Assembly: GCA_041662745.1 (NCBI GenBank)
Contig: JBAZRV010000005.1
Coordinates: 30,001-62,000 of the forward strand
DNA from: Patescibacteria group bacterium
GTDB lineage: Bacteria > Patescibacteriota > Patescibacteriia > 2-01-FULL-39-33
Length of the DNA stretch: 32,000 nucleotides
Reading direction: 5' to 3'
Part shown: piece after piece, positions 22,454-24,607 of the stretch
Numbering within the stretch: position 1 is the first letter of the stretch
Layout: every line of letters starts with the position of its first letter
Position numbers and translations under genes: made by a program
The notes under the pieces: generated by a model
The model's database searches: none
Told to the model about the DNA's origin: nothing
What the model saw: only the letters and a program-made list of their open reading frames with translations

Positions 22454-23523
22454 TTTTTCTTTTTAATTAATTGCAAAATAATATCCGCCACTGCTCCAGC
22501 GCCGTTTTGCGGCATCATTTTTCTAATATTCTTTGACAGCTTATCAAGTTTGTCGTCGCTTTTGATCAATTCGCTAATAACGTCGGCCAACATCTTTTTA
22601 TTCAACGAGACTTCGGATAAAACCACGGCGGCGTTATGCTTCTGGAAATAATTGGCGTTGTCCTCTTGGTGCGTCCGATACATCGGAATAATGATTGACG
22701 GTTTGCCACAGTAAGATAACTCCGACAAAGTGGACAGTCCGGCACGCGTTACCACCAAATCGGCTACGCACAAGGCCTCGGGCATCTCATGGGTTATGAA
22801 TTCAAATTGGCGGTAATTATCAGCGGAAAAATTTATCTTTTTGCCCTTGCCGGTAACATGAATCACTTGGATGAATTTCATCAGGTCAGGCAGAGCTTGA
22901 TCCAGTATTTTATTGACCGTGGCCGCGCCCGTACCGCCTCCGGTAAAAAACACTATTGGCACGTCCTTCTTCAGACCGAATAATTCACGGCTTTTCTCCT
23001 TATCGCAATGGCTGAATTCTTCCCGAATGGGATTGCCGGTTAGAGTTGCTCGGCCGCGCTTGAAATCGCGCAGAGAAATATCAAAGGATACGGTGATTTT
23101 TCTGGCCACCGGCGACATTAAACGATTGGCCAAGCCGACTTCAATATCTTGCTGATGGATTAGGATGGGAATGCGCAACAGCCCTGCCGCCCAAGCTAAA
23201 GGCACACCAACATAAGCGCCGGCCACCATCACTAACTGTGGACGAAAAGCAAGCAAGATTTTCAGGGATTGCAAAAATCCCCAGATAATTTTAAACGGAT
23301 CAATAAAGTTCTGCCAAGAAAAATAACGGCGGAACTTTCCTGAAGTAACGGCTAAGAAGGGTATCTTATAGCTTTCCACCGCTGATCGTTCCGGACCGTT
23401 AGCGGTGCCGACAAACAAAAACTCCGCTTCGGACTGACGTTTTTTGATTTCCTGATAAACGGCGATAAGCGGACTGACCGAACCCATGGTACCGCCGCCG
23501 GATAATAATATTTTATATTTCAT
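22450..23523 (-). CDS. murG: undecaprenyldiphospho-muramoylpentapeptide beta-N-acetylglucosaminyltransferase MurG
   Basis: N-terminal LLSGGGTMGSVSPLIAV, C-terminal FFTGGGTGAA...VTRAGLSTLSEL, position within the dcw cluster. Confidence 0.92.
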   Translation of the reverse strand: MKYKILLSGGGTMGSVSPLIAVYQEIKKRQSEAEFLFVGTANGPERSAVESYKIPFLAVTSGKFRRYFSWQNFIDPFKIIWGFLQSLKILLAFRPQLVMVAGAYVGVPLAWAAGLLRIPILIHQQDIEVGLANRLMSPVARKITVSFDISLRDFKRGRATLTGNPIREEFSHCDKEKSRELFGLKKDVPIVFFTGGGTGAATVNKILDQALPDLMKFIQVIHVTGKGKKINFSADNYRQFEFITHEMPEALCVADLVVTRAGLSTLSELSYCGKPSIIIPMYRTHQEDNANYFQKHNAAVVLSEVSLNKKMLADVISELIKSDDKLDKLSKNIRKMMPQNGAGAVADIILQLIKKKK

Positions 23524-24607
23524 AACTTATTCCTGCTGCTTGATTTAACTTATCCGCCGCCTCTGTTAAAGTCAGCGAATCCAGCAAAATACCGGTTGTT
23601 CGGGCAAAACCGATGGTTTTTTCCGCCTCATCCAATACCGCCAAAAAATCCTTAACAGTTTTCTTGGCTTCTTCTGCATCAGCTACTTTATATTTTTTTA
23701 AGTAACCTTTTATATGATCATTAATGAACTCCCGGAATCTGTCACGCAGTTTTTTTCTGTTTTTCGGCAAATCCATTTGGCCGTCAAAACGAAAAGCAAT
23801 GACTTCCGTCAAGATAGAATCAACGCCGCGCCGTTTGGATTTTAAAAAATCAATTTGATGGATGACTTCGTGTCTGCTGGAATTTGTTATGTCCTTTTTA
23901 GTCCTTTCCAAAAAGTAGCTTAAGCCCAAATAATGCAAGGGGTTATTTTCTCCCTGAAAGTACTCCTTATATATACTGGATCCTGTCATCAGCATACAAA
24001 AACTTTCTCCGGCTTCATCAAAACCCTCCTCCTTCCAATCAGGATTCATTCTAGACCAAGCTTCTTCGCTGAAAACAAAAGCGCCGGAGAGCATCGCCGG
24101 CACGCCCAGCTCTTCCGCCTTCCAATATTTATTCTCCTCCCCCGCCTCGGGTCTGGACTGCCGTAAAAAATACATTTCATCGAATTCATTGACTACGGCT
24201 GAGGAGTCCGTGCCGACAGACTCCAGGCAATGCATCAAATAATTTTTAGCAATTTGCAATTGCCTGATTTGCTCTAACTCTTTCGGCTTAATGTGACACT
24301 CTCGACTGATTTCTTCCATCTCAGCCAAAGGATGCGATCGGAGATACTCGCTAATGCGATTAACAAAATTTTTCAGCCGCCGGCGATAAGCGGGATCGGC
24401 GCGGGGATGGTCGGGAGTATCAATCAGCGGTTCAATTTTTTCCAATAAAAACTTTTCCGCCGCCAAGGCGTTTTTCAGCGCCAACCAGTACTCCGGCCGG
24501 ACAATATCGGGGTAAGCTGATTTCAATTTTTCTATCTTAGCGGCAATCTCTTGATCAGATCGGCTTTCTTGATTATCCGGTATGATATTTGCTTCGCGTT
24601 TATTCAT
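23513..24607 (-). CDS. hypothetical cytoplasmic protein with an HExxH motif, embedded between ftsW and murG
   Basis: 364 aa, no TM segment or signal peptide. HEVIH at aa 246-250 (23858-23872) and a Glu 18 residues after the second His (TEVIAF). Its start is 3 nt after the ftsW stop, and its stop overlaps the murG start by 11 nt. Confidence 0.6.
   Translation of the reverse strand: MNKREANIIPDNQESRSDQEIAAKIEKLKSAYPDIVRPEYWLALKNALAAEKFLLEKIEPLIDTPDHPRADPAYRRRLKNFVNRISEYLRSHPLAEMEEISRECHIKPKELEQIRQLQIAKNYLMHCLESVGTDSSAVVNEFDEMYFLRQSRPEAGEENKYWKAEELGVPAMLSGAFVFSEEAWSRMNPDWKEEGFDEAGESFCMLMTGSSIYKEYFQGENNPLHYLGLSYFLERTKKDITNSSRHEVIHQIDFLKSKRRGVDSILTEVIAFRFDGQMDLPKNRKKLRDRFREFINDHIKGYLKKYKVADAEEAKKTVKDFLAVLDEAEKTIGFARTTGILLDSLTLTEAADKLNQAAGISYEI

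What the first reader, a model, noticed from the sequence alone, without database searches (positions are those of the whole stretch)
23513..24607. Unrecognised 364-aa HExxH protein translationally wedged between ftsW and murG
The ftsW-murG adjacency is one of the most conserved in bacterial dcw clusters. Here a soluble, predicted helical protein sits between them. It starts 3 nt after the ftsW stop, and its last 11 nt overlap the murG start, so it is expressed stoichiometrically with the lipid II machinery. Its only motif I can read is HEVIH (aa 246-250), with a Glu 18 residues after the second His (TEVIAF). That spacing is reminiscent of gluzincin metallopeptidases, though this may be coincidental. 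It is a candidate lineage-specific divisome or peptidoglycan-synthesis accessory factor, or a peptidase.
Basis: partly seen in the sequence, partly recalled or inferred. Interest (0 to 1): 0.62.

Follow-up and report, generated by a model that had tools for sequence, protein, structure and literature searches.

The report
Swappable orphan zinc-peptidase gene in cell-wall operon
A real gene wedged between the cell-wall genes ftsW and murG of a tiny uncultivated bacterium (Candidatus Buchananbacteria) most likely encodes a previously undescribed cytoplasmic zinc peptidase, but it is optional, confined to one genus and swapped between species like a cassette, so it is probably an accessory passenger of the operon and not a core part of the division machinery.

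Summary
A 364-aa ORF (23513-24607, minus strand) starts 3 nt after the ftsW stop and overlaps the murG start by 11 nt. It carries HEVIH (246-250) and E268.

The motif is not chance. H246, E247, H250, D253, R259, E268 and Y302 are invariant in all 19 relatives found, down to about 20% identity. E268 is followed by the gluzincin 'ExxA' signature. A 14-sequence AlphaFold model (pLDDT 78.7) has the zincin layout.

No Pfam, NCBIfam, PADLOC, PHROGs, PDB-sequence or Foldseek hit is significant, so this is an undescribed family. It has only 8 cluster representatives among 1.84 billion proteins.

The 'divisome accessory factor' reading is weakened:
- The gene occurs in one Buchananbacteria genus only.
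- It was lost cleanly in three species of that genus.
- It evolves 2-3 times faster than its neighbours.
- Its tree conflicts with the FtsW+MurG tree (AU p about 0.0004).
- In one pair with FtsW 90% and MurG 86% identical, X is only 32% identical, and DNA identity breaks exactly at the gene borders.
- Within a type it is under purifying selection (dN/dS 0.11-0.21).

This scan had already reached the same view on the orthologue in another genome (e1-864623). The substrate is unknown.

The parts
23513..24607 (-). Gene X: 364-aa soluble, acidic, orphan gluzincin-like protein
   Evidence: ORF. No family hit. Homologues found. Purifying selection. Structural model.
24203..24607 (-). N-terminal helical domain (aa 1-135), predicted helices 12-31, 38-57, 72-91 and 108-129. 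It is variable and is shortened in the 294-330-aa relatives.
   Evidence: Model. Alignments. Mean identity among deep representatives is 21%.
23903..24202 (-). Predicted small beta-sheet subdomain (aa 136-235; strands 145-148, 176-179, 209-212, 229-233), with invariant P170 and W184
   Evidence: In hhalign this region aligns upstream of the M3 active-site helix.
23783..23878 (-). Catalytic block (aa 244-275): the active-site helix with H246-E247-x-x-H250 and D253; R259; then the 'glutamate helix' with E268-x-x-A271 and R273
   Evidence: Invariant columns. Helices 237-252 and 261-274. This is the most conserved region (39% against 21-22% elsewhere).
23858..23872 (-). HEVIH codons (aa 246-250)
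   Evidence: Read directly. Invariant H, E and H in 19 of 19 sequences.
23795..23806 (-). E268-V-I-A271: the putative third zinc ligand plus the small 'Ser/Gly-turn' residue (ExxA)
   Evidence: E is invariant. Position 271 is Ala in 16 of 19 rows and T, V or S in the others. Motif definition from PMC6414381.
23702..23704 (-). Y302, invariant in all 19 sequences. It is a candidate transition-state-stabilising tyrosine (inference).
23516..23782 (-). C-terminal helical subdomain (aa 276-364), with invariant L341 and L342 and nearly invariant T338
24608..24613 (-). Upstream junction: ftsW stop codon (24611-24613) plus a 3-nt spacer before the X start. No Shine-Dalgarno sequence is visible.
   Evidence: The same 3-4-nt spacing occurs in relatives.
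23513..23523 (-). Downstream junction: 11-nt overlap of the X end with the murG start
   Evidence: The same overlap occurs in type-A relatives. Other types have a 2-3-nt gap.
24611..25735 (-). ftsW (SEDS glycosyltransferase family), the upstream conserved flank of the slot
   Evidence: Pfam PF01098, E=2e-97.
22450..23523 (-). murG, the downstream conserved flank of the slot
   Evidence: Pfam PF03033 and PF04101.

Best explanation
Gene X encodes a real, soluble, cytoplasmic protein that founds an undescribed family with the architecture of a gluzincin-type zinc metallopeptidase. It has a variable N-terminal helical domain and a small beta-sheet. An active-site helix carries H246-E247-x-x-H250, and the next helix carries E268-x-x-A271. 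D253, R259, R273 and Y302 are also invariant.

I infer that it binds zinc through H246, H250 and E268 and hydrolyses a peptide bond in the cytoplasm, with E247 as the general base.

I infer from the 3-nt gap, the 11-nt overlap and the absence of above-background promoter or terminator signals that it is translated from the mraY-murD-ftsW-X-murG-murC message by coupling.

It is shown that X is not a core division component. It was acquired at the base of one Buchananbacteria genus. It was lost cleanly at least once and probably twice. It exists as two deep allelic lineages that have been exchanged between species. The exchange presumably happens by recombination in the conserved ends of ftsW and murG (the mechanism is inferred).

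I therefore read X as an accessory, exchangeable cytoplasmic peptidase that rides on the expression of the cell-wall operon. Its substrate is unknown. A link to cell-wall precursors or to FtsW/MurG turnover is possible but not shown.
For: Real gene:
- dN/dS is 0.11-0.21 in five close pairs.
- dN/dS is 0.05-0.22 in every 40-codon window along the gene.

Metal site:
- H246, E247, H250, D253, R259, E268 and Y302 are invariant in 19 of 19 sequences, including two non-dcw relatives and a 623-aa protein.
- ExxA is kept, with Ala in 16 of 19 rows and a small residue in the rest. Its definition is in PMC6414381.
- The motif block is the most conserved part of the protein (39% against 21-22%).

Fold:
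- The AlphaFold2 model from 14 diverse sequences has pLDDT 78.7 and pTM 0.79.
- It shows four short strands, then helix 237-252 (HExxH), then helix 261-274 (E268).
- The weak top Foldseek hits are enriched for M3 gluzincins: 5 of the top 9.
- hhalign against 14 M3 proteins puts the HExxH motifs in register with score 25.8 (P 0.02-0.03). Four negative controls score 13-15.5.

Cytoplasmic: no TM segment or signal peptide in any member.

Accessory and exchangeable:
- X is present in 5 of 8 other species of the genus and in 0 of 25 genomes of sister genera.
- Only 2 distant, non-dcw hits appear in about 400 genomes of the class.
- ftsW abuts murG in G004, G005, G007, G012 and G021.
- X is nested in both deep clades of the FtsW+MurG tree.
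- The X tree is incongruent with that tree, AU p=0.0004 and 0.0003.
- G003 against L035: FtsW 90%, MurG 86%, X 32%. DNA identity falls from 70-87% to background exactly at the ftsW stop and recovers exactly at the murG start. The L035 arrangement was seen in three independent assemblies.
- X dS is about 0.38 where the flanks show 0.7-1.3, in two pairs.
- X has the lowest GC3 in the cluster.
Against: - No significant sequence or fold match to any known peptidase. The best Foldseek E-value is 1.1 with TM 0.14-0.22, and the hhalign P-value is only 0.02-0.03.
- Zinc binding and catalysis are untested.
- The HExxH-to-E spacing (17 intervening residues) is shorter than what I recall for the classical M1 (18) and M4 (19) families.
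- No expression data.
- The support values that place G004/G005 (73) and G007 (66) within the host tree are moderate, so the number of losses is uncertain.
- The strict retention of the slot, even after allele replacement, could still mean that co-expression with ftsW and murG matters functionally.
Confidence: 0.6

Rival explanations
1. X is a lineage-specific accessory factor of lipid II synthesis or the divisome. It would bind FtsW, MurG or MraY at the membrane, or process the stem peptide of a cell-wall precursor, and it sits in the operon because it must be made together with them.
For: - The position between ftsW and murG is invariant in every dcw-linked relative, including after allele replacement.
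- Coupling is tight on both sides.
- Two invariant arginines (R259, R273) could bind a carboxylate or phosphate of a precursor (speculation).
- Unchecked notes of this scan report other HExxH genes captured by dcw clusters in other phyla, which would suggest convergence if confirmed.
Against: - X is restricted to one genus.
- It was cleanly lost in G004, G005 and G007, whose cell-wall genes are intact.
- It does not co-evolve with FtsW or MurG: AU p about 0.0004, and 32% identity where the flanks are 86-90%.
- Distant relatives G149, G288 and P0009 are not in dcw clusters.
- The same slot holds a NUDIX-type gene and a Lys/Glu-rich gene in other families, so position alone is weak evidence.
Confidence: 0.2
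2. X is a conflict-type gene: a defence or abortive-infection protease, or an effector used against a phage or against the bacterium's own host cell. It would use the ftsW-murG junction as a safe, constitutively expressed harbour. The deep alleles would be maintained and exchanged because the target evolves.
For: - Deep allelic lineages are exchanged between species.
- Presence/absence varies within one genus.
- X diverges faster than all its neighbours.
- Its composition deviates mildly from the cluster.
- A second variable slot between murC and murB lies two genes away.
Against: - No match to any PADLOC defence model or PHROG.
- No relatives in phage genomes or viral contigs.
- It is a single gene with no partner, neither an immunity gene nor a sensor.
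- It has no secretion signal.
- No window shows dN/dS above 1 within a type, so there is no sign of an ongoing arms race.
Confidence: 0.15
3. X is a pseudo-peptidase. The HExxH...E site would bind a metal only structurally, or bind a ligand, and the protein would act as a scaffold or regulator without hydrolysis.
For: No detectable homology to active peptidases. Large helical domains flank the site.
Against: The general-base Glu (E247) and a candidate transition-state Tyr (Y302) are invariant along with the ligands in 19 of 19 sequences. From general knowledge, pseudo-enzymes usually lose the catalytic residue first.
Confidence: 0.08

Closest known systems
[quoted passage not shown]
   Same: HExxH on a helix. 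A Glu on the following helix with a small residue three positions later (ExxA). A small beta-sheet precedes the active-site helix. A conserved downstream Tyr is present.
   Different: No significant sequence, profile or fold match to any family of the clan. Only 17 residues lie between H250 and E268. There is an extra variable N-terminal helical domain. The M1 GxMEN motif is absent, by my reading of the sequence. X is genus-restricted and hypervariable.
Peptidase family M3 (oligoendopeptidase F / Pz-peptidase A; PDB 3ahm, 3aho, 3sks, 2h1j, 2h1n; Pfam PF01432)
   Same: From general knowledge, these are cytoplasmic, mostly helical gluzincins. They recur among the top Foldseek hits. hhalign puts the HExxH motifs and about 65 upstream residues in register, above the controls.
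   Different: The hits are not significant (E 1.1-4.2, TM 0.14-0.22; hhalign P 0.02-0.03). M3 proteins have about 600 aa against 294-382 for the dcw-linked members. There is no Pfam PF01432 hit. The alignment does not reach the Glu helix.
Orthologue noted earlier by this scan in another Buchananbacteria genome (e1-864623, 367 aa)
   Same: Same family (type A, about 78% identical), same slot, and the same conclusion: an optional, fast-evolving, swapped zinc-protease-like gene.
   Different: None of substance. This report adds the ExxA and Y302 conservation, the AU tests, the DNA break-point profile, the survey of the slot across the class, and the M3 profile test.
Other HExxH genes embedded in dcw clusters that this scan noted in other phyla (e1-770561, a CPR mraY-HExxH-ftsW arrangement; e1-1291004 and e1-1565306, Omnitrophota murG-Peptidase_MA_2-murC)
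   Same: A zincin-like gene is translationally embedded in a cell-wall operon. The CPR case is also described as cassette-like.
   Different: By those notes, the Omnitrophota proteins are secreted, are recognised by Pfam PF13485 and are conserved across the phylum. X is cytoplasmic, orphan and limited to one genus. I did not test homology between them.

Membership tests
Gluzincin clan (zincin tribe) | HExxH motif on an alpha-helix (two His ligands plus the general-base Glu) | tested here: met
   HEVIH 246-250 lies within predicted helix 237-252. H, E and H are invariant in 19 of 19 sequences.
Gluzincin clan (zincin tribe) | Third zinc ligand is a Glu on the next helix (the 'glutamate helix') | tested here: met
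   E268 lies in predicted helix 261-274 and is invariant in 19 of 19 sequences. This is met at the level of sequence and secondary structure only.
Gluzincin clan (zincin tribe) | Small Ser/Gly-turn residue three positions after the Glu (ExxA) | tested here: met
   E268-V-I-A271. Position 271 is Ala in 16 of 19 rows and Thr, Val or Ser in the other three. Definition from PMC6414381.
Gluzincin clan (zincin tribe) | N-terminal subdomain with a beta-sheet of at least 3 strands and a backing helix before the active-site helix | tested here: inconclusive
   The model predicts strands 145-148, 176-179, 209-212 and 229-233 and short helices 181-187 and 224-227. pLDDT is low in 153-162 and 195-205, and no significant fold match confirms the topology.
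Gluzincin clan (zincin tribe) | The three ligands converge on one metal site; zinc is bound; peptide hydrolysis occurs | not testable with these tools
   Model coordinates are not exposed. Biochemistry is needed.
Gluzincin clan (zincin tribe) | Detectable homology (sequence, profile or fold) to a known member | tested here: not met
   Pfam, NCBIfam and PDB sequence searches found nothing. The best Foldseek E-value was 1.1. hhalign against M3 gave P 0.02-0.03.
Peptidase family M3 (PF01432) | Match to the family profile over the catalytic domain | tested here: not met
   No PF01432 hit for any of 16 members scanned at E<=10. hhalign covers only 68 columns with a marginal score.
Core dcw/divisome component | Present wherever the partner genes are present in the lineage | tested here: not met
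   Absent from 3 of 9 species of the genus, from 25 of 25 genomes of sister genera, and from about 397 of 401 genomes of the class. ftsW abuts murG directly in G004, G005, G007, G012 and G021 and in 30 of 34 sampled class-mates.
Core dcw/divisome component | Evolves congruently with its partners | tested here: not met
   The X tree conflicts with the FtsW+MurG tree. Host-congruent topologies are rejected at AU p=0.0004 and 0.0003.
Known anti-phage defence systems (PADLOC-DB 2.0) | Match to a defence-protein model | tested here: not met
   None of 14 members matches meaningfully. There is one stray hit at E=0.03.

The most novel reading that the evidence does not exclude
X is a swappable cytoplasmic zinc-protease module that acts on the cell-wall machinery it is co-expressed with. 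For example, it could cut a cytoplasmic loop of FtsW, MraY or MurG, or the stem peptide of a precursor. In that way it would throttle or arrest wall synthesis in response to phage attack or loss of the host partner. That would be a new kind of growth-arrest switch embedded in an operon. The independent capture of HExxH genes by dcw clusters in several uncultivated phyla, noted elsewhere in this scan and not checked here, would then be convergent evolution of the same solution.
Probability: 0.1. Interest if true: 0.8.

Novelty: new variant of a known kind. Interest (0 to 1): 0.5.

Why it matters
If X is an active peptidase, it defines a new gluzincin-like family that no profile library or fold search recognises. 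That would be one more case of a catalytic scaffold hidden in the 'dark matter' of the candidate phyla radiation.

The more unusual point is its genomic behaviour. A translationally coupled gene sits inside one of the most conserved operons of bacteria, yet it is optional. It exists as deeply divergent alleles and is exchanged between species with break-points exactly at the gene borders.

This shows that even the ftsW-murG junction can serve as an insertion and exchange slot. It is also a warning that gene position should not be used alone to assign a function.

The finding has limited reach. It concerns one genus of uncultivated bacteria, the substrate is unknown, and this scan had already reached the same reading on an orthologue.

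Tried and rejected
- Pfam, NCBIfam, PADLOC and PHROGs scans of X and of up to 16 relatives found no meaningful hit. A stray Tox-MPTase2 hit at E=0.13 for one member was not pursued.
- PDB sequence searches with the single sequence and with the profile returned only coiled-coil noise from V-ATPase subunit C, E 0.04.
- The first AlphaFold run, with 5 close sequences, gave an unusable model with pLDDT 43.7. The second run, with 14 diverse sequences, worked.
- Foldseek against the PDB and BFVD found nothing significant.
- Word-index homologue searches with alignments recovered almost nothing new.
- The search for related loci with the 13-sequence alignment failed because no block was conserved enough. 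It worked with 8 sequences.
- Measuring the metal-site geometry was impossible because no coordinates are available in the Python box.
- A phage origin found no support: no relatives in IMG/VR or in GenBank phages.
- Ongoing positive selection was rejected. No window has dN/dS above 0.22 within type A.
- An assembly chimera as the explanation for the G003/L035 contrast was rejected. The L035 arrangement occurs in three independent assemblies.
- A chance ORF was rejected on the basis of homologues and dN/dS.
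Full report
1. THE OBSERVATION

Upstream lies ftsW (24611..25735, Pfam FTSW_RODA_SPOVE E=2e-97). Downstream lies murG (22450..23523, both GT28 domains). Three nucleotides separate the ftsW stop from the X start. The last 11 nt of X overlap the murG start.

HEVIH is at residues 246-250 and E268 lies 18 residues after H250. I read both directly from the DNA.

No member of the family has a hydrophobic segment or a signal peptide. 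The highest 19-residue hydropathy is 0.85-1.67, against 2.81 in FtsW. The protein is therefore cytoplasmic.

Promoter-like and terminator-like sites in the cluster occur at the frequency of shuffled sequence (16 against 13.0, sd 3.7; 14 against 12.2, sd 4.2). Nothing visibly uncouples X from the operon.

2. AN ORPHAN FAMILY

X matches nothing in Pfam, NCBIfam, PADLOC, PHROGs or the sequences of the PDB. This holds for the single sequence, the profile, and each of up to 16 relatives scanned individually.

The family is tiny. There are four close homologues in 5.8 billion clusters. A full HMMER pass over 1.84 billion proteins found eight 50%-identity representatives. Named records are Candidatus Buchananbacteria, in the Patescibacteria.

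3. THE MOTIF IS REAL AND HAS THE FULL GLUZINCIN SIGNATURE

Nineteen sequences were compared, down to about 20% identity. They include a 623-aa protein and two relatives outside any dcw cluster. H246, E247, H250, D253, R259, E268 and Y302 are invariant in all of them.

The published definition of the clan requires HExxH on an active-site helix and the third ligand Glu on the following 'glutamate helix'. It also requires a small residue, usually Ala, three positions after the Glu (PMC6414381). X has E268-V-I-A271. Position 271 is Ala in 16 of 19 rows and Thr, Val or Ser in the other three.

The motif block is the best conserved part of the protein. Its mean identity among deep representatives is 39%, against 21-22% elsewhere.

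A first AlphaFold model from five close sequences was useless (pLDDT 43.7). With 14 diverse sequences the model reached pLDDT 78.7 and pTM 0.79. It shows an N-terminal helical bundle and four short strands. Helix 237-252 carries HExxH, helix 261-274 carries E268, and a helical C-terminal subdomain follows. That order of elements is the zincin layout.

Foldseek found nothing significant in the PDB or BFVD (best E 1.1). Five of the nine best PDB hits were M3 gluzincins: Pz-peptidase A and oligoendopeptidase F.

I tested that hint. I collected 14 M3 proteins from Patescibacteria genomes. hhalign put the two HExxH motifs and about 65 upstream residues in register, with score 25.8 and P 0.02-0.03. 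FtsW, MurG and two reversed-sequence controls scored 13-15.5 with P 0.38-0.79. This is above noise but far below what family membership needs.

The verdict is that X is built like a gluzincin and keeps every residue a working one would need. It belongs to no described family, and zinc binding and catalysis remain inferences.

4. DISTRIBUTION AND SYNTENY

Whole-genome searches with the family profile gave these counts:
- Same genus: 5 of 8 other species have X.
- Sister genera of the same family: 0 of 25 genomes have it.
- Class: about 400 genomes gave only two distant hits.

Those two distant hits (G149 and G288) keep the HExxH..D..R.G..E..A block but are not near cell-wall genes. The 623-aa P0009 is also outside a dcw context, as far as its short contig shows.

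Every other relative with enough flanking sequence lies between ftsW and murG, always within a few nucleotides of both.

Three species of the genus lack X (G004, G005, G007). In those species and in two sister genera, ftsW abuts murG with 3-27 nt between them.

I also sampled 40 class-mates from about 40 families. Of these, 34 have ftsW just upstream of murG, and 30 of the 34 have gaps under 150 nt. Two carry unrelated genes in the slot: a NUDIX-type hydrolase in G115 and a Lys/Glu-rich 154-aa protein in G117.

The adjacency is therefore the rule. The slot is occasionally used by other genes, so position alone says little about function.

5. EVOLUTIONARY BEHAVIOUR

X diverges 2-3 times faster than its neighbours. 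Where FtsW is 94% and MurG 84-87% identical, X is 77-78%. Where FtsW is 69-75% and MurG 60-65%, X is 26-33%.

Within a type it is nevertheless under purifying selection. dN/dS is 0.11-0.21, against 0.035-0.06 for FtsW and 0.046-0.07 for MurG. No 40-codon window exceeds 0.22.

The FtsW+MurG tree places X-bearing species in both deep clades of the genus. G007 (no X) is nested in one clade (clade support 99) and G004/G005 (no X) in the other (support 73). The simplest history is one gain at the base of the genus, followed by at least one and probably two clean losses.

The X tree has two deep lineages, and it conflicts with the host-gene tree twice. L035 and G008 carry lineage-II genes, while their host-gene sisters G003 and G006/L034 carry lineage-I genes. 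Forcing either host-congruent grouping is rejected (AU p=0.0004 and 0.0003).

The clearest case is G003 against L035, where FtsW is 90% identical, MurG 86% and X 32%. In 90-nt windows, DNA identity runs at 70-87% up to the ftsW stop. It falls to 28-48% with many gaps across all of X. It returns to 70-86% from the murG start onwards. The L035 arrangement was assembled independently from three runs, so it is not a chimera.

The converse also occurs. In G001-G002 and G006-L034 the synonymous divergence of X (about 0.38) is well below that of the flanks (0.7-1.3). That points to recent transfer of the cassette.

X also has the lowest GC3 of the cluster, 0.458 against 0.505-0.560.

I found no relatives in phage genomes or viral contigs.

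6. INTERPRETATION

Shown:
- X is a real gene under purifying selection.
- It has an invariant, complete gluzincin-type site.
- It is cytoplasmic.
- It is fixed in the ftsW-murG slot of one genus.
- It is dispensable.
- It has two deep alleles that are exchanged between species.

Inferred:
- Zinc-dependent peptidase activity.
- Translation by coupling with ftsW and murG.
- Exchange by homologous recombination in the conserved ends of the flanking genes.

Unknown: the substrate.

Its 'divisome or lipid II accessory factor' reading is not excluded but is weakened. A subunit that works with FtsW or MurG should be retained and should co-evolve with them, and X does neither.

A conflict-type role would fit the allele exchange. 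It has no positive support: no defence-model match, no partner gene, no secretion signal and no positive selection.

The persistence of the slot through allele replacement is the one feature that still argues that co-expression with the cell-wall genes matters.

7. RELATION TO EARLIER NOTES OF THIS SCAN

The orthologue in another Buchananbacteria genome was examined before (e1-864623). That follow-up reached the same reading, and my tests here reproduce it independently.

Other notes describe HExxH genes embedded in dcw clusters of another CPR lineage and of Omnitrophota. I did not test these. If they hold, repeated capture of zincin-like genes by cell-wall operons would deserve a dedicated comparison.

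8. VERDICT

This is a new family-level variant of a known kind of enzyme, with unusual cassette-like behaviour inside a highly conserved operon. Interest is moderate (0.5). It is well documented and somewhat surprising for operon evolution, but it is confined to one uncultivated genus and has no known substrate.

Noticed in passing
L044:1309-1857 (-) (genome G115) and L069:2994-3458 (+) (genome G117): Other lineages of the class carry unrelated genes in the same ftsW-murG slot. One is a 182-aa NUDIX-type hydrolase whose end overlaps the murG start. The other is a 154-aa Lys/Glu-rich protein.
   Followed up: partly
window 20290-20958 (+); L001:11570-12459; L005:3664-4277; L039:7343-7495: The murC-murB interval, two genes downstream of X, is a second variable slot in this genus. 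It holds 72-aa and 149-aa genes here, 210-aa and 49-aa genes in G002, 128-aa and 83-aa genes in another relative, and a single 50-aa gene in G008.
   Followed up: partly
L001:5170-6687 against window 25739-27121: MurD is 505 aa in the G002-type relatives but 460 aa here. Conversely, MurC is 481 aa here and 457 aa there. In-frame length changes therefore occur in the essential Mur ligases of this genus. The murC insert in this window is the hairpin repeat of note e1-2526048.
   Followed up: no
L017:6301-7203 (-) (genome G149): A second, unrelated 300-aa HExxH protein (HEIAH ... NEAITELVA) lies about 3.5 kb from the distant X relative of G149. Secreted LRR and beta-helix proteins lie between them. 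None of these matches Pfam.
   Followed up: no
L018:5083-6678 (+) (genome G288); P0009 / L038:164-2035: The X-type catalytic block also occurs at the C-terminal end of a 531-aa protein and in the middle of a 623-aa protein, both outside dcw clusters. The domain is therefore older than its capture by the cell-wall operon.
   Followed up: partly
G001-G002 and G006-L034 (L029, L024, L026, L034): The synonymous divergence of X (about 0.38) is a third to a half of that of the flanking ftsW and murG (0.7-1.3). This suggests recent lateral exchange of the cassette between these species.
   Followed up: partly
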